Assembly (NCBI GenBank): GCA_026026165.1
Contig: JAPEUD010000067.1
Span: 1 to 64,000, forward strand
DNA from: Sarea resinae
Lineage: Eukaryota
Length of the DNA: 64,000 nucleotides
Reading direction: 5' to 3'
Shown: in pieces, positions 719 to 42,542 of the stretch
How positions within the stretch are numbered: the first letter of the stretch is position 1
Layout of the letters: each line of letters begins with the position of its first letter
The notes under the pieces: model-generated
What the model saw: the letters and a program-made list of their open reading frames with translations, nothing else
Database searches by the model: none
What the model was told of the DNA's origin: nothing
Program-made: the position numbers and the translations under genes

Positions 719-3700
719 ATGGCTCCAGCTTCTCAGTCGGACGGGTCCTCCACTCCTCTCGCAGAATGGTTCTGGATTGCTGGGGTGGATTCAGATTCCC
801 TCTTACAGTTCAACACGAGCAAAAACAAGAGGGCGAGTAGCGGAGCCTTGCAGGTTCCGGTGTCTTCGACGATCGAAGAGGATAAGGCGTTGGAGTCTGA
901 AGATAGCAATGCCGCCAAATCACCACCAGCGGCCATCACAAAGGATGCATCTCCTAGGACTCCCAACGACCTTCGCCTATCCATGCAGTCATTTGCATCC
1001 GCCGATTCACCAGCAACAGGAAGCAACCGGAGCAGCGCCACGATCAAGGCCGTTCAACCCAATGGTTCTGCACTCAGTGAAGCTGATTTTGACAAGGCTC
1101 TACGAAAGTTTGCCTCTGAAAGGGAATCTTTCTTGGTGAGAAATCCGATGCATCAGGGCCCGGGAGAGTCACAAACTGAAGGGCTCCAGGATGAGCTTTC
1201 CTTTAGTGCGGGTACCGTGGCTACCAATCGGTCCAAGCCACGGTCCAAAGCACAGCGCATCAATGGCGAAGACATTGAGGGCCTCAAGTTATCGGGTGGA
1301 AGCATCAGAAGACGGATATCTTTCAGGTATATCAGATCTCTGAGAACTTTTGACCATTTGCTCAATGATTTTAGGGATTTGAATTCGATGAAACGACAGC
1401 CCTCGGTTGTTAGACAACGTAGGTGTCATGATCCCAGGCCTAAGCTCTATGTTGACTCATAATCTTGCAGCTTCCGTTCGCACGGCGAAGAGACTAAGCA
1501 ACTACAATTCCGTCATACCCACACCTCAACCTCTAAACCCGTCACCGAAAATGCATCCTCTCAGAAGACGCTTCGAACCAGTTCTACTCGACAGATACCC
1601 TCCGAAAAGCATGGTAGAAGAAGTAAAACGACGAGGCCAATTTCCAGACTATGTCCCCATGTTCGCGTTTCCAAACGACATCAACATCGTTTCCTCTGAT
1701 GAACGGCCGCGGTCAACCTGGCATGGCTTTGCGATGACCTCCGGAGACAATTCGAGGTTGTACGGAATCTGTGTCATCACGTGGCTTCCGTTGAAGCCAG
1801 ACGCAGCGGAAGAGCTAGAGCGGCAGTGTGAGGAATGGAGACGGGACAACATGACAGATGAAGAACGGGAGCTTGCGAGTAGCTTAGGAGAGCGATTGGC
1901 CCAAGAGAGAGCGAAGCTGTCCCGTCTGTTAGCAAAATTGCCCACGATGGCATCTGGTTCTGCAGCGAGAGAAGCACTCGAGGATGACATCAGTGCTGTG
2001 GAGGAGAAGATTGGGTTGATGACTGACTTGCTAAGACCGGTACGCCATGGTGCAGCTTCGAAAATAGACGGTTTGACGGAGAGCGAAACCGGCCTTTGGA
2101 TACCACGGGCTTATGGAATACTCGGACGAGACGCCAATTTGACTAGCTTTTGGAAGGAGTGGCTGCGAGCAGTTGTGGTGCCCATGACGAATGGTGGTGT
2201 CCTACGGGTACCCCCAAGCTCCCCTAAGACGGGAATGTGGCAGCCACTCGAGAGATATGTTGTGAATCTGTGCGCCGAAGCATTGAGTCCAATTACGTCC
2301 AAAACGCAAGTGGAGATTGCCGTACGAGAATTACGGCTCTTTGCCAGGAAGGAGGCAATCAACGAGCTTCCAGGCTCACGAAACGTATGATCTCCCTGCA
2401 TGCCGATCTTCCTAGAGACTGCTAACGGCCCATTAGACCGATTTATATGCTCTGTTCCGAGCATTATCGATCCAGAATATAGTAATATTATTCGAGGCAA
2501 GTCTTTATATATCAGACTCAACGTACAGTACTGATTTATATCACAGTTTGCGCTAGCAGAGTCCCGCATTATCCTGCTCTCTTCACATACTGCCATGCTT
2601 CACCTAGCAAGTAAAGCTCTGGTCCACCTGCTCTATCCTCTGACCTGGTCTGGAGTCTTCATACCTGTGCTCCCAGCGCGATTACTTCAAGCACTAGGCG
2701 CCCCTTGTCCGTATATTGTCGGTATCGAGCGTCGCTACGAGAATATTGAATTGCCTGACGACGATTTCGTTTTGGTTGATCTAGACCGGAATGAGATTGA
2801 GAGCACCGTTCGACCCCAACCCCTTCCACGGATGCACCGAAGAAAATTGAATTCCCTTCTGCAGCTCGCCGCGCCCCATCACAATCGTTATGGTGTTCCT
2901 TGCGGGCCCCCTCTGTATGCCGTCGAGACGTTTCCCCACGATGCGTTCTCTTCAGAGAACAATTCTATTTTCGCTCAATATGCGCCTCCGAGTACTCTTT
3001 CGAAGCTTGTCAGCATGAATTCGGCATCTTTCGGAGATGCCTCATCCGGCACCACTCCTAAGCCTCCAGTCTTCAATGCTTTCTTACAAGCAAGGAGCGA
3101 GCATGCCCGTCCGTGGGATAGGCCTTCTACCAGCTCTACAAGCAAGACTAGTTCTCCACCGTCGCCGAAGTTATCACCTACATCATCTCATTTCCCTCCT
3201 CTTCCAGCTACTCCGATATCACGACAGGACTCCGGCTATGCTCTTCAGGCAACATTGCGGGAAAAACGCTCCGGCCATTTTGATACAGCTTCCCGGAGGA
3301 GCTCTTCGGTATGCAAAACCCTTGATTATTTTCTCTGATTGTGTGCTAACCATCAGAAGTTCGGCTTCGAACGAGTGCCGACCTTGAGGAGGCCAAGCAT
3401 GCCCTTCAGCGCACATTCTTCCAGTCTTTCGACGTCGACATTGTCCACGGAAACTGCATCAACTTCTCACTACGCGCCTTCAACGTATGCAGCTTCGACC
3501 TTGGCTGCATCTACGATTATGCCAAACATGCTCATGCAACCAATACGCAATACAGATACCACTTCTTGGGTCGAAGGGCATTGCTTACAGTGGGTGGCGC
3601 ATGATGATAAAGCCACTTGCTCCGTATGTGATGAGAAATCGGATGAGGGTATTTATCGATGTACAGGTATGTAGCCTTTTGAACCATCCTCTGCTATTTT

Positions 3701-4497
3701 ACTGACCTTCTCAGGTTGTAATGTCAGGGCTCATGGGCGGTGCAGTCAACAAATCTGCATTGTCTGCCCCGCTGCGTTCCGCCCAGATCAAGTTCGGGCT
3801 GCATTTATCCGATGCTTTGCCAGCCTGTTCTACACTTACAGAAAGTACCTCCTTCCCGCAGTCGGCGATCAAAAGAAGGCGGGGATGCTTTATCGATTCA
3901 ACACAGACGGTTTCCTCCGAAGCATGCCGCACGAAAATGCCGACTATGTGAACATGCTCCAGCAAACTCAAGGTCGGTAGTTTATTGTACTGCTGCAAAG
4001 GAATTTTATTAATCTCGTCGCAGGCTTCAACGAGTTTATCCATGAGCGCGAGAGTAAGCCACCGAATGACCCTTCTATCTTACTCTTCGACCAAATCATT
4101 CTCTCAAAGAAGAACCGTGGCCGAACCTCGTTCTTTTCCAAGTCCAGTGAGTGCTCCACTCGCTCCACCACTTTAGTCACCGACAGGTCGTACTAACGCC
4201 TCCTCAGACACAGACTTTTTATCGGACACGTCGGACCATGTCTGGCGATCAGCTGCAGCGACTCCTCCAAACAGTCGGTTCCCGGGCGATTATCGGCAAG
4301 TCGTCAGCAGAAGTCAGTCCCCTGCCCTGTGCTTTCTTAAAAATGAGCCTAACAAGCAAAAAGTCCCCGCCAAGCTCGACCCAACTTTGATGAAGGAGCC
4401 ACGCGTCATCCAAGGTGTTCCGCGTATACCAAACGCTAAAGCGAAGCGAAAGCCTATCCCTTCGAAGCTCGGCAAAAGCAATGGGCAGCCACCGTGA
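719..4497 (+). CDS. DENN domain Rab-GEF-like protein (uDENN/DENN/dDENN with a C1-like Cys/His finger), multi-exon
   Basis: Exons join ORFs 719, 1407, 2595, 3339, 3740 and onward. Motifs: LAEWFWIAG, FPDYVPMFAFPNDI, YPLTWSGVFIPVLP, APCPYIVGI, CSVCDEK..CTGC. Stop TGA at 4495-4497. Confidence 0.88.
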
Positions 4498-5347
4498 TGG
4501 TTCTCGTGCCGTGACATAAGCATGATGCAGACTGGATATCGATCTTTTACGCCAGATATGTCCAATTTTTTCTTCCTCATTTGGCGGGATGGTATGGCAC
4601 TTGGTTCAGGTTAGGTCAGGTTTGGTCGGATTTGGTTGGCCTCCTCGGGCTGGGCGCATAAGGATTGGGCGCATCAATTTCACCGTCACTGTCCTGCATC
4701 TATCTCATCGGTAGTCCATCTCAGCAAGCAAGCAAGCGAATTCGAAGCGAATCAAGTCATATCACAGCGTAGGAAATATCTTTTGTTCCTATCCCCTTTC
4801 CTTTTCAGATAGTACTTTTCTTGTCTATCTCCAAGCATTTTTCGTTCAGACAGACGGTCTCGTTCCGTTGTTCCCCTTGGATGGTAATCGGGGGTCTATG
4901 CCTTCCCACGCCGGCAGTACCATGCAATGTGTGCACTAAGGGATGAAGGGCTTCGGCTCAATATCTGACACGGGCGTCGGATTTACTCGGCTGGAATAGA
5001 TAACGTTGGGGCTGGAATTGGAAGAAAACGAAATGAACGGCATAGCGAATGTATCTCACAATCTTCCTCGGCACTGCCCATCATCCTATGTTACTACGTA
5101 GTACGCCCCTGCGTTGCATGTATGTCATGTGTCGTCCTAATCTTTTTGGGGGGAGACTTGGTAATCGAGAGACGTTTCGACAAAGAATGTCGAAGACTAA
5201 GACCCCTCTTTTCGAAACCCATCGCTCTGTTCCGTTGTTTCTCCTTCTCCGCTTGGTTCCTGTCCGTCCGCCCGTCTTTGTCTCATTGGGTTAGGGTGTT
5301 AGTAGGTCATCAGAGAGGACGTGAGGTAGGTGAATAGATAGGTTAAG

Positions 5348-5397
5348 AGGTAGGTAGGTAGGTAGGTAGGTAGGTAGGTAGGTAGGTAGGTAGGTAG
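5348..5397. repeat. (TAGG)n tetranucleotide microsatellite, about 12 units
   Basis: Direct tandem repeat. It produces the spurious YLPT-repeat ORFs. Confidence 0.95.
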
Positions 5398-5910
5398 AGA
5401 GGTAGCATAGCGTAGCAGCCGATTCCACGGACCCGTAAACGTGGGTGGGAGTGCTTGAACGTCGGTAATAGTAGCAAAGCATGCACGCTTGAGAGGAATT
5501 GGCACCAAAGGATATCTCCATTCTTCACCTCCGTCATTTCCGTAACCTGGGTTTCTTATCCCTTTTTATTGTTCCAGCATTGGTTCGTGTTGCACGACCT
5601 GGGCTCTAGAAACTGGCTGTATTGTATCACTGCTGTTGCCGGATCCCCCAAAGAAAGCATGTAGACGGCTTACGCAAGGAAAAGAGTCTCGATCAGGTTT
5701 GCAGATTAGAGAGACACATATGCAGGTCAAACTTTTGATTTCTGTCTCCGAGGTATTCCTCAATGACAACACCAGCTAGAACGAATCTACTCGGCCCGAG
5801 GAACCAAAAGAATTAGAAGAGGGGCTATCAAAAGGGGAAAGAAACAAAGTCTCTGAAGCCTCCTATGGGGGTTTTACAATTCCATCTATCTACCACAATA
5901 CCCAAGTCTT

Positions 5911-11241: not shown

Positions 11242-12694
11242 ATGGCACCAGAATCGAAAAAGCGCAAGGGTCAGTTGTTCCTCGCAATGAAAGCTCTCGG
11301 CCTCTACTGATACACAATAGCTGCCGCCCCGGCGGCCAAGTCAAGCAAGAAGACAAAGAAGGCCGAGGATAGCACTTCGGTAGCTCCAGTCGAGGCAACT
11401 CGCCCGAAGAGAACCAAGAAAACAACCGCAACGGAAGAAATCGTAGAGATTGCAGCTCCAGCGCCAGAAGAAGCCGTTAAAGAGACCAAAAAGTCAAAGA
11501 AATCCAAGAAGACCGAAGAAACGGTCGAGGATGCAGACCCTGCACCAGCTGAGCCGATCAAGGAGGCTAAGAAGTCCAAGAAGTCCAAGAAGTCCAAGAA
11601 GTCCAAGAGGACAGAGGACGTCACCGAAAATACGCCCGCTGTAAGAGAATTTGCTCAGGATCTAAAAAAGTTGAAAAAAGTGATCGCCGACTCGGCTGTA
11701 AAGAAGGCTACCTCGAAGAAGGAAGAGAAGGAACCTAAGGTCGCCACATCATCCCCACCACCTGAGACCGTTGGCGAACCCGCGGAAGAGGATGAAGAGG
11801 AAGAAGAGGAAGATCAGACCAAAGCTCTGCTGAAGGGTTTCGAAAGTAGCGACGAGGAAGAAGGCCCCGGCGATGAGGGTTTCGAGGCAGGTCAAGAGGT
11901 CCCAGCTATTCCCGACGATAAGAAGATGCGCAAGAAGCTCAAGGGCGCCAACAAGGACGGAGACGGCAATCCTGGCGTTGTCTATGTTGGGTTCGTAATC
12001 TTTCTTGCCTCACCCCTTCTCGCTCTTGTTCTATGACTGACGAAAAAATCTATTTAGGCGCATTCCCCATGGCTTCTACGAAAACGAAATGAAAGCCTAC
12101 TTTTCTCAATTCGGCGACATCCGTCGGCTTCGTCTGTCTCGCAACCGTAAGACTGGCAAGAGCAAGCACTACGCCTTCATCGAGTTTGCCTCCTCGGAGG
12201 TGGCTCGCATTGTCGCGGACACGATGAACAATTACCTCATGTTTGGCCACATCCTAAAGTGCAAGCTGGTCCCCAAGGAACAAGTCCACGCCAGCCTCTG
12301 GAAGGGCGCCAATAGGCGTTTCAAGGCCGTGCCGTGGAACAAGCTCGAGGGGAGAAAGCTGAGGCTGGGTATGGATCGCGAAGGGTGGGGCAAGAGGATT
12401 GAAAGCGAGCAGAAGAGGAGGAAGGGCATGGAGGAGAAGCTGAAGGCTCTTGGATACGAGTTCGATGTTCCGGAGGTCAAGAGCGTGGACGATGTGCCCA
12501 AGAAGGAGGAGCCCAAGTTGCTCGAGGAGGCCAAGGAACCGGTCGTAGAGGAGACAACTGTGGTGGTCGAGAAAGAGGAGCCAAACACTTTGGTCGTCAC
12601 GGAGGATGTTACGACCAAGGTCGCTGCTGCCACGCCCGAGAAGAAGTCGAAGGAAACTAAGAAGTCGAAGAAAGGCAGGAAAGCGGCGAAATAG
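11242..12694 (+). CDS. NOP15: Nucleolar RRM ribosome-biogenesis protein Nop15/NIFK
   Basis: GVVYVG|RIPHGFYENEMKAYFSQFG..LSRNRKTGKSKHYAFIEF..MNNYLMFGHILKC. Lys/Glu-rich N-terminus with (KKS)n repeat at about 11569-11606. Confidence 0.93.
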
Positions 12695-13006
12695 ACGAAG
12701 AGGCAGATTTGCAAGTTGTGCCTCTTTTTCAGCATCGTCACGGGTATCTCTTTTCTCATCCGCTTGAATGATAGGTTTCTTGAATTGAAGATATGTTTGG
12801 ATAGAATCGTTGGAACTCCACGGTCAGGTCTCACGGTGTAATGGCAATATCCAGCATCTTGCGTCCAGAGATATATGAAAGGTGTCGACTTTATTGATCA
12901 TGATACGTGACATTCGCAGAGACTCCTATCAAGACAACGCTACAATAATCTCACAATCCTAGAAACTTGGATGCCCTCCACATATCTCCGCATCTCCACC
13001 AATTGA

Positions 13007-13155
13007 GCATGTACGCGCAAAGCGAACCGAATCAACCACACGAAAATCGTTAGGCAATGAGCCGGATTAGAAAGGCGTTTGAGGTACTCTCGGTCACTCG
13101 GGAATGTGTAAAGACAATGGAAGCAGTGTCTCCTACAAGGGTATGTTGAGGACCT
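13007..13155 (-). ncRNA. Box H/ACA snoRNA; 3' pocket matches 25S rRNA AAAGCGAA-U-GAUUAGA
   Basis: Minus strand reads hairpin 1 (GGUCCUC..UGUAGGAGACA/UGUCUUUACA..GAGUGACC), H box AGAGUA (13090-13085), hairpin 2, then ACA (13012-13010) plus 3 nt. Pocket strands UCUAAU and UUCGCUUUGC sit 14 nt from ACA. Confidence 0.8.
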
Positions 13156-13678
13156 GGACAATAATATGATGAGAAAAGAAGAAGAGAAGAAGGGGAGGCG
13201 TGAGAGAAGGAAAGGTTTTGTATGTGGCCGCTAAGCGTGTGTTCGGTGTGCACGTGACGGCTGTGTCTTCTGGTACCCGTACAGGTAAACGAGGAAAACA
13301 CGAGAGGCGAGAGCGGACGATTAGATTAGATGAAAGGGCATCAGATCGATCGAGGTGGGGATCATGCCTATCCTCGGCGCCTCGGTTTACTGCCCGTAGG
13401 TACCTCTGAGACCAGCCCAAATACCTGCTACATAAGGTACTCAGAGTATGCCATCACTGCGATCCAACTGCCGAGCAGATCGATCACTCCAGCGCTTTGC
13501 TCGGCCTTCTCTCGCTCTCCACATTCCCTCCACCGAAGCTATCCTTCCCCACGCCGACAACATCCTCGTCCTCCTACGTTATTAAAGAATTGCTGGTGCA
13601 CCGCTGCTTCCTTCCTTTTCTTTGTCTTTTGGCATTCTTTTTTGGAGATAGAGCGATTTTCTCGGAACGGTGCTCATC

Positions 13679-14718
13679 ATGTCGACTTCATTGAGGATTC
13701 TGGTTCCCGTCAAACGGGTCATTGATTATGCGGTATGCTTCCCCGTCTGTCCTCGTGTTATACTACCTTACCGTGCCCAATGCTTGCCGTCCCAGCACTG
13801 CCAATGCCACCACCACCACCACCTTAAGGATCGAAGGATCCGAAGGGAAAATCCAAAGTCGACATCAGCTAATGTCTGATCTACCTCGCCACAGATCAAG
13901 CCGCGCGTCAACAAAGCCAAAACAGCCGTCGAGACCACGGGCGTCAAGCACAGCATGAACCCCTTCGACGAGCTCTCCATCGAAGAAGCCGTGCGACTGC
14001 GGGAACGCAAACTGCCCGTCGAGGAAATCGTCGCGGTATCGGCGGGGCCGTCCAAGGCGGCCGACATCCTCCGCACCGCCATGGCCATGGGCGCGGACCG
14101 CAGCATCCACATCGAGAACAAGGACGGCGCCGACCTGGAGCCGCTGGGCGTGGCCAAGATGCTGCGCGCGCTCGTCGACAAGGAGAAGTCGAATCTCGTC
14201 ATCCTGGGCAAGCAGGCCATCGACGACGACGCGAACCAGACCGGGCAGATGCTGGCGGGGCTGCTGGACTGGCCGCAGGCGACGCAGGCCAGCAAGGTCG
14301 AGATGGACGGCGACGAGGTCACGGTGACGCGGGAGGTCGACGGCGGCGTGGAGACGTTGCGCGCCAAGCTGCCGATGATCATCACGACGGATCTGCGACT
14401 CAATGAGCCCCGCTACGCGAGCTTGCCGAATATCATGAAGGCCAAGAAAAAGAAGATGGAGAAGATTACGCTGGCGGACCTGGGCGTCGATGCGGGGAAC
14501 AGATTGAAGACGGTCAGGGTTACGGGTGCGTTTTACCTTCCTTCTCTTACCCTTCTCCTCTGCCTCTCATTGTTCTTTCCCGGCTTTCCCTCCCTTCAAG
14601 CGAGTCTTCCATTACTGACGAAATTGAAAATGCAGAACCTGCACCACGGCAAGGCGGGGGCAAGGTCGAGGACGTGGATGGCATGCTGGCCAAACTGAAG
14701 GAGTTGGGTGCTCTCTAA
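13679..14718 (+). CDS. CIR1: Electron transfer flavoprotein beta subunit
   Basis: [69 protein letters not shown]. 2 introns, TAA at 14716-14718. Confidence 0.95.
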
Positions 14719-41994: not shown

Positions 41995-42080
41995 GTTGCG
42001 TCCCTTTCTTTTCTTCCTCGCTTTTCTTCCTCACTCCTCGCACACAAGATTCGCATTCGAAACTCACACACAGAGATTCG

Positions 42081-42542
42081 TCCTCTTTCGAGGTCTCTAT
42101 CTCGAGATGACTTCATCTCATGTTGATTTTGGGAGAAAGTCCCCGGACACGCTTTCCCTCGAGGGAGCAAAGTGGAAACACGCCGCCATAAAAGCACAAC
42201 CGCGGCTTATCTCACCTGTCCTCCTTCCACTTTCTCAGCTTTCCAAAGCCGTTCGCACTCTCGCTTGAGCTACTCACAGCGGTCGTTACCTGGGCTCGAG
42301 AGACACTATGGATGAAGATACGAGTCCGCGCTCTCTAGGCTTGGCTTCTACTCAAATGGGTTTCTCTGGCGAGAGGAGGATCTGGTTACGTCTGGCGTTA
42401 GTGAGATGGGTCAAAGGACTGGAGAGACTGATTTCGTCGTGATGGATAGTAATGCGACTGCTTTGGTCTTTTCCCTTCGGTCTTCGGACGGAATAGAAAG
42501 GATCCAGGGTAACTCGATGGGGCTTATTCTTGATGCGAGGAG
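42081..42542 (+). ncRNA. NME1: RNase MRP RNA
   Basis: CR-I GAAAGUCCCCGG (42135-42146) pairs with CR-V AUGGGGCUUAUUC (42517-42529) to form P4. CR-IV-like AUAGUAAU at 42446-42453, P8 GUG-GAAA-CAC at 42172-42181, P3 hairpin before CR-I, and complementary ends (UCCUC/GAGGA). End coordinates are approximate. Confidence 0.88.

What the first reader, a model, noticed from the sequence alone, without database searches (positions are those of the whole stretch)
13007..13155. Unannotated dual-guide H/ACA snoRNA between NOP15 and the ETF-beta gene
Seen in sequence: the minus strand folds into hairpin-H box (AGAGUA)-hairpin-ACA, with both pockets 14 nt from their box. The 3' pocket (UCUAAU / UUCGCUUUGC) is complementary to 25S GUAAAGCGAA-UG-AUUAGA. 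From memory this is the yeast Psi1004 (snR5) and human SNORA52 site. The 5' pocket (ACCCU / UUCCC) fits 18S GGGAA-UU-AGGGU, from memory the human Psi406/U71 site, and not the second snR5 target. Inference: a rearranged guide combination predicting an 18S pseudouridine I do not recall from budding yeast. A CT-rich tract upstream (about 13170-13320) and AATAAA downstream (12894-12889) suggest its own Pol II transcript divergent from ETF-beta.
Basis: partly seen in the sequence, partly recalled or inferred. Interest (0 to 1): 0.72.

Follow-up and report, generated by a model that had tools for sequence, protein, structure and literature searches.

The report
Fungal H/ACA snoRNA, Neurospora ACA14-like

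Summary
The element is real in sequence: minus-strand hairpin - H box (13090-13085) - hairpin - ACA (13012-13010). The 3' pocket makes 8+6 Watson-Crick pairs with this genome's own 25S rRNA at the uridine equal to yeast Psi1004 (0 of 1500 rRNA shuffles; only such hit in the window's 128 kb). Its 3' hairpin matches Neurospora Nc ACA14, a cloned, northern-verified intergenic guide for that site (18 of the last 20 nt identical), so this is most likely its orthologue, and the split of snR5's two targets over two RNAs is already published for Neurospora. The 5' pocket pairs 10 bp with own 18S at U366 or U367, but only at p about 0.03-0.06. The pocket is not kept in Nc ACA14. No expression evidence or close homologue was found. 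Verdict: new member of a known kind; a lineage-specific 18S pseudouridine (possibly two adjacent) remains open at about 45%.

The parts
13007..13155 (-). Box H/ACA snoRNA core (3' end predicted at 13007; 5' end unknown, may extend into the CT tract)
   Evidence: Fold and motifs; likeness to Nc ACA14
13092..13154 (-). Hairpin 1: 7-bp lower stem with one bulge, open pocket, upper stem 13137-13107
   Evidence: z -2.27, 2 of 200 shuffles
13138..13147 (-). Hairpin 1 pocket, 5' strand; its last 5 nt pair with 18S 368-372
13100..13106 (-). Hairpin 1 pocket, 3' strand; pairs with 18S 361-365 (target U366, 14 nt to H box) or 361-366 (target U367, 15 nt)
13085..13090 (-). H box (ANANNA) in the single-stranded hinge
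13013..13078 (-). Hairpin 2: 4-bp lower stem, pocket, long upper stem 13065-13027
13066..13074 (-). Hairpin 2 pocket, 5' strand; 6 WC (+2 G-U) pairs with 25S downstream of the target
13017..13026 (-). Hairpin 2 pocket, 3' strand; 8 WC, then 1 G-U and 1 WC pair with 25S upstream of the target, 14 nt to ACA
13010..13012 (-). ACA box, 3 nt from the predicted 3' end
13161..13340 (-). Pyrimidine-rich upstream region, putative promoter / start region (inferred only)
12890..12895 (-). AATAAA; chance-level, function not shown
12089..12694 (+). 3' coding part of NOP15 (convergent with the snoRNA)
   Evidence: RRM; best PDB hits Nop15/NIFK, E 8e-49 to 4e-19
13680..14698 (+). ETF-beta gene, divergent from the snoRNA; first intron 13733-13894
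   Evidence: PF01012; spliced contig in run X1; start codon read; 3' end not mapped

Best explanation
A stand-alone box H/ACA snoRNA gene, orthologous to Neurospora Nc ACA14 and functionally equal to the Psi1004 half of yeast snR5 (human ACA52). Shown in sequence: two hairpins, boxes, and pairing of hairpin 2 to the own 25S rRNA. From established H/ACA biology: each hairpin binds Cbf5, Nop10, Nhp2 and Gar1; the pocket holds the pre-rRNA so that the first unpaired U, 14 nt from ACA, is isomerised to pseudouridine (25S helix 38). Inferred: Pol II transcription divergent from ETF-beta and 3' trimming to three bases past ACA. Hairpin 1 either guides a lineage-specific 18S pseudouridine at U366 and/or U367 (about 45%) or is an orphan scaffold arm.
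For: Hairpin 2: 8+6 WC pairs (10+8 with G-U) flush with the upper stem at 14 nt; 0 of 1500 shuffles; unique top candidate in the window. Site identity: own uridines lie 43, 37 and 14 nt before the target; yeast Psi960/966/990 lie 44, 38, 14 before Psi1004-snR5 and C. thermophilum Psi942/948/972 lie 44, 38, 14 before Psi986, which all four methods call modified. Nc ACA14: cloned, northern-positive, intergenic, ACA hairpin guides 26S-Psi984, listed as homologue of snR5, snoR81, ACA52; by eye from the printed sequence 18 of the last 20 nt and 13 of 15 columns of the 5' arm are identical, including stem bases that do not pair with rRNA. Single copy, and no Rfam snR5 match elsewhere in the genome.
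Against: No expression evidence: the only run found holds near-identical contigs on NOP15, 12823-12992 and ETF-beta but none over 13007-13155 (low depth, contigs only, so uninformative). No Rfam match even at E 10. Whole-RNA folding z only -0.99. No close homologue was reachable, so no covariation test. Orthology rests on one distant sequence compared by eye, and on hairpin 2 only.
Confidence: 0.88

Rival explanations
1. True double guide: hairpin 1 directs a lineage-specific pseudouridine at 18S U366 or U367 (yeast 368/369), at the closing G-U pair and first loop base of a small hairpin.
For: Best match of all own rRNA and U2, U5, U6-region uridines; 10 WC pairs, above the 8-bp minimum (PMC6049503); canonical 14 or 15 nt spacing; pocket fully open and its 3' strand pairs right down to the lower stem; lineage-specific second targets are common in fungal H/ACA families (PMC5824354). 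Local 18S fold puts U366 in the loop-closing pair.
Against: p about 0.03-0.06 (89/1500; 65/2000; 199/6000 for 11 pairs with 1-3 unpaired bases). Equivalent site unmodified in S. cerevisiae, S. pombe, human, C. globosum (0.05% and 0.08%) and below threshold in C. thermophilum (1.9% and 0.4% Psi calls). Pocket not kept in Nc ACA14 (by eye). Caveat: Chaetomium rRNA differs just downstream of the site (U pattern), so these two species are a weak test.
Confidence: 0.45
2. Single guide: hairpin 1 is an orphan scaffold arm, as in Nc ACA14, and the 18S match is chance.
For: Nc ACA14 has no target assigned to its H hairpin; only 22% of fungal H/ACA families are double guides; 10-pair matches are frequent background; site unmodified in five maps.
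Against: A fixed pocket reaches this match in only 3-6% of shuffles, and two adjacent 10-pair registers in 14 of 6000 (post hoc statistic).
Confidence: 0.42
3. Hairpin 1 targets something else, for example the 25S uridine equal to yeast 898 (3+6 WC pairs), or an RNA not scanned (U1, U4, mRNA).
For: Second-best match, 9 WC pairs with one slack base each side.
Against: Only 3 pairs on one side; that base is 2'-O-methylated in yeast (Um898, snR40); the C. thermophilum Psi nearby (881) is the next base. No U2, U5 or U6-region match of 3+3 WC or better.
Confidence: 0.08
4. One reading: hairpin 1 guides the human Psi406/U71-equivalent site.
For: That site is modified in S. pombe (Psi361, 80%), C. 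thermophilum (U355, 72%), human (87%) and predicted in Arabidopsis (Psi360), so a fungal guide for it should exist.
Against: It is own U356; the pocket gives no 3+3 match to U356 in the scan.
Confidence: 0.02
5. Not a gene: chance fold in intergenic DNA or a dead copy.
For: No Rfam hit, no reads, unremarkable overall folding energy.
Against: 14-pair match to a conserved Psi site at exact spacing, and sequence identity with an expressed Neurospora snoRNA.
Confidence: 0.05

Closest known systems
Neurospora crassa Nc ACA14 (EU780993; Liu et al. 2009, PMC2780460)
   Same: Intergenic H/ACA snoRNA; ACA hairpin guides the same LSU uridine; 18 of last 20 nt and 13 of 15 columns of the 5' arm of hairpin 2 identical (by eye).
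   Different: Nc ACA14 is listed at 234 nt with no target for its H hairpin; its hairpin 1 lacks this pocket 14-15 nt before the H box.
Saccharomyces cerevisiae snR5 (Rfam RF01252; snoStrip HACA_27)
   Same: Guides 25S Psi1004.
   Different: snR5 also guides Psi1124, which pocket 1 does not fit (no such hit); the Rfam model gives no match in this genome.
Human ACA52/SNORA52 and Arabidopsis snoR81
   Same: Listed as functional homologues for the same LSU site.
   Different: No sequence match; functional analogues only.
Human U71/SNORA71, Arabidopsis snoR86 (18S Psi406 / Psi360)
   Same: Target the same stretch of 18S.
   Different: Their site is own U356, ten nt upstream of the pocket-1 target.
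Dual-guide loops SNORA53, SNORA57, SCARNA1, SCARNA8, yeast snR82 (Jady et al. 2022, PMC8763049)
   Same: One pocket with two alternative registers that place neighbouring uridines and share a core of pairs, as pocket 1 does for U366/U367.
   Different: Those cases have both pseudouridines mapped and conserved guide bases; neither is shown here.

Membership tests
Box H/ACA snoRNA | Hairpin-hinge-hairpin-tail fold | tested here: met
Box H/ACA snoRNA | H box ANANNA in hinge; ACA after second hairpin | tested here: met
   13090-13085 and 13012-13010
Box H/ACA snoRNA | Bipartite pocket of 8 or more pairs, target 14-16 nt from box | tested here: met
   pocket 2: 14 WC at 14 nt; pocket 1: 10 WC at 14 or 15 nt
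Box H/ACA snoRNA | Stable RNA ending 3 nt after ACA | tested here: inconclusive
   one contig-only run, no cover of the locus
Box H/ACA snoRNA | Cbf5/Nop10/Nhp2/Gar1 binding and guide-dependent pseudouridine | not testable with these tools
   needs bench work
Box H/ACA snoRNA | Covariation of stems across relatives | tested here: inconclusive
   no homologous loci obtained
Nc ACA14 orthologues | ACA hairpin guides yeast-1004-equivalent uridine | tested here: met
Nc ACA14 orthologues | Sequence likeness beyond the guide strands | tested here: met
   hairpin 2 stems and tail, by eye; hairpin 1 not alike
Nc ACA14 orthologues | Conserved gene neighbourhood | not testable with these tools
   no Neurospora genome held
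snR5 (RF01252) | Score above the Rfam gathering threshold | tested here: not met
snR5 (RF01252) | Second guide for Psi1124 | tested here: not met
U71/SNORA71-type guide | Targets human 18S Psi406 equivalent (own U356) | tested here: not met
Dual-guide loop (Jady 2022) | Two alternative registers with shared core pairs | tested here: met
Dual-guide loop (Jady 2022) | Both uridines modified and guide bases conserved | not testable with these tools
   no map or close homologue for this lineage

The most novel reading that the evidence does not exclude
Hairpin 1 has acquired a lineage-specific 18S target and, through two alternative 10-pair registers, makes one or two adjacent pseudouridines (U366, U367; yeast 368/369) that are absent from the yeast, fission yeast, human and two Chaetomium maps: a new rRNA modification site and a fungal small-subunit example of a dual-guide loop. 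About 0.45 for at least one of the two, about 0.15-0.2 for both.
Probability: 0.45. Interest if true: 0.5.

Novelty: new member of a known kind. Interest (0 to 1): 0.3.

Why it matters
As it stands it fills an annotation gap: Rfam does not recognise this Pezizomycotina-type guide for a widely conserved LSU pseudouridine. If pocket 1 is real it would add an rRNA modification site not seen in five maps and show a free H/ACA arm capturing a new target, possibly two adjacent uridines with one loop. That is a cheap, sharp prediction, but lineage-specific second targets and dual-guide loops are both described phenomena, so a specialist would find it useful rather than very surprising.

Tried and rejected
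Rfam scans of the window and of 12750-13700 gave no snoRNA family (the CRISPR-DR17 hit at E 0.92 is chance through the pocket-2 strand). Tighter patterns gave 3 viral and 0 then 4 prokaryotic matches, all rejected on inspection. Run X1 (share 0.18) has no contig over the snoRNA; not counted as evidence either way. Pattern searches in the own genome for an ACA6-like guide (58 matches against 44 control; 53 against 60; no pair close together) and for a guide to U356 (9 against 7) were at chance level and not pursued. AATAAA and TCACGTG (13257-13251) are at or below chance frequency. The H/ACA candidates of Gao et al. 2021 target other sites; the T. rubrum table lists no 18S target between 267 and 412 and its numbering was not mapped; Jochl et al. 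2008 cloned no H/ACA RNA. Earlier findings by sequence and by relatives gave nothing; by words, seven unrelated snoRNA notes. The 'two adjacent registers' statistic (0/2000; 14/6000) was defined after seeing the match and is not taken at face value.

Full report
Observation. On the minus strand, 13155-13007 folds as hairpin - hinge - hairpin - tail in both MFE and centroid. Hairpin 1 has a 7-bp lower stem, a wide-open 10 x 7 internal loop and an upper stem; the H box is at 13090-13085; hairpin 2 has a 4-bp lower stem, a pocket and a long upper stem; ACA is at 13012-13010. Folding energy is not by itself unusual for the whole RNA (z -0.99, 36 of 200 shuffles), better for each hairpin (2 and 9 of 200). 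Rfam finds nothing here at gathering score or at E 10, and the snR5 model finds nothing in the genome (0 matches, 38 of 534 candidates scored). The locus is single copy. It lies convergent with NOP15 and divergent from ETF-beta (first intron seen spliced).

Targets were tested on the genome's own RNAs: the rDNA unit on contig C72, with a 1530-nt group I intron removed from the 25S and the 25S 3' end taken from the neighbouring repeat, plus U2, U5 and the U6 region; U1 and U4 were not fetched. Pocket 2 pairs 8+6 Watson-Crick (10+8 with G-U), flush with the upper stem, 14 nt from ACA; the next best site has 7. None of 1500 dinucleotide shuffles of the rRNA reached 14. A snoGPS-like scan of both strands of the window found it as the only candidate at 14 pairs with a closed upper stem; the best others had 12 (ACA) or 13 (H). 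The site is yeast Psi1004: own uridines stand 43, 37 and 14 nt before it, yeast Psi960, 966, 990 stand 44, 38, 14 before Psi1004, guided by snR5 (PMC5699541, table passages), and C. thermophilum Psi942, 948, 972 stand the same before Psi986, positive by BID-seq, HydraPsi-seq, nanopore and cryo-EM (PMC12723226 supplement).

Closest known RNA. Liu et al. 2009 (PMC2780460; passages with Table 2, and supplement search) cloned Nc ACA14, 234 nt, intergenic, northern-positive, ACA hairpin guiding 26S-Psi984, listed against snR5, snoR81 and ACA52; the other snR5 site (Psi1105) is on Nc ACA6. [quoted passage not shown] I read this as orthology. So the loss of the second snR5 target from this RNA is already described in a filamentous fungus. 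Hairpin 1 of ACA14 has no assigned target and, by eye, not this pocket.

Pocket 1. Its best match among all uridines scanned is own 18S 361-372, in two registers: U366 (5+5 pairs, 14 nt to the H box, two slack bases on the 3' strand) or U367 (6+4, 15 nt, one slack base each side). Ten pairs exceeds the 8-pair minimum (PMC6049503; abstract and discussion). But 89 of 1500 rRNA shuffles and 65 of 2000 pocket shuffles do as well, 199 of 6000 reach 11 pairs when 1-3 target bases may be unpaired, and 10-pair candidates are common background. A rival 25S site gives 3+6 at the base that is Um898 in yeast.

Human Psi406 is 56 nt before Cm462, and the human table shows nothing between 406 and 428 (PMC6182160, table passages). 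S. pombe Psi361, mapped to yeast 358, is 56 nt before Cm417, with nothing between (PMC4605285 Table S3, 30 of 51 '18S' places seen). Own C412 is that Cm position, so Psi406/U71 (equivalence to Arabidopsis Psi360 in PMC2685112, passage) is own U356, and U366/U367 are yeast 368/369 and human 416/417. Yeast has no modification between Psi302 and Cm414. In the C. globosum nanopore table, own uridines plus 17 reproduce the U pattern: U383 and U384 show 0.05% and 0.08% Psi calls, against 31% at U317 (yeast Psi302). In C. thermophilum U365 shows 1.9% Psi (9.4% with U-to-C) and U366 0.4% (3.2%), against 72% at U355 and 54% at U299. So the predicted site is unmodified or below threshold in 5 of 5 maps checked. 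The two Chaetomium species are a weak test because their U pattern just downstream differs from this genome's, so the same pocket would not fit. No map for a nearer fungus was found.

Mechanism. Established knowledge (partly recalled; pocket rule as stated): each hairpin assembles Cbf5, Nop10, Nhp2, Gar1, and the first unpaired U 14-16 nt from the box is isomerised. For pocket 2 every sequence requirement is met and the site is known to be modified in relatives: about 0.88 that this is a live guide for it. For pocket 1 I put 0.45 on a real, lineage-specific 18S target, 0.42 on an orphan arm. Canzler et al. 2018 (PMC5824354; passages only; supplements not readable, and they may hold a prediction for this family) report that only 22% of fungal H/ACA families are double guides but that one hairpin often takes lineage-specific targets. 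The two-register geometry resembles the dual-guide loops of Jady et al. 2022 (PMC8763049; abstract, sections 8 and 11), which make adjacent pseudouridines through alternative pairings with a shared core; two adjacent 10-pair registers arose in 14 of 6000 shuffles, a statistic chosen after the fact. U366 would be the U of the loop-closing G-U pair in a local fold.

Expression and transcription unit. The only run found (X1, share 0.18) has near-identical contigs at 12391-12782, 12823-12992 and 13503-13731 at depth 2-7 and none over the snoRNA; contigs of a shallow library cannot show absence. The pyrimidine tract is there and 16 of 20 Neurospora H/ACA genes are intergenic, so an own Pol II unit is the default inference; AATAAA (12895-12890) and TCACGTG are at chance frequency (PMC4138321 passages, name no shared snoRNA motif for Aspergillus or Neurospora). 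The 5' end is unknown, and a non-coding host intron was not excluded.

Homologue hunt failed: no fungal genomes are held, and pattern scans of metagenome, viral and prokaryotic collections gave only chance matches. Hence no covariation test. Other fungal surveys read did not list this RNA or the 18S site: PMC8216456 (passages, sections 16-17), PMC5640933 (passages), PMC3890542 (passages, section 8), PMC2377427 (passages), PMC5062969 (passages).

Verdict. Observation confirmed; interpretation partly supported. New member of a known kind (Nc ACA14 / snR5-Psi1004 type). Interest 0.3; the open point is whether pocket 1 marks a previously unrecorded 18S pseudouridine, or two.

Noticed in passing
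window 42035-42540 (+): RNase MRP RNA gene, about 506 nt with long insertions against the Rfam model (77.5 bits).
   Followed up: no
L003 about 4106-5635 (G000:C72, 25S rDNA): 1530-nt group I intron in the 25S gene (Rfam RF00028 113 bits; bounds) holding a 264-codon open frame with a His-Cys box homing endonuclease domain (PF05551, E 1.7e-7), apparently followed by a spliceosomal-type 3' splice signal before the ribozyme core.
   Followed up: partly
L123 (G000:C72:136273 onward): The U6 snRNA gene matches Rfam only over positions 1-54 and appears interrupted by several short spliceosomal-type introns.
   Followed up: no
L128 (G000:C72:226642-226750): A probable second insertion near the 3' end of the 25S gene: the LSU model resumes at 3004 after non-rRNA-like sequence, and the contig ends at the matching point.
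   Followed up: no
window 12823-12992: An RNA-library contig of a near-identical strain covers this stretch and stops 15 nt short of the predicted snoRNA 3' end; it may be the NOP15 3' UTR or a snoRNA 3' extension; strand unknown.
   Followed up: no
own 18S U356: The Psi406-equivalent site is modified in S. pombe and C. thermophilum but not C. globosum or S. cerevisiae; its guide in this genome was not found.
   Followed up: partly
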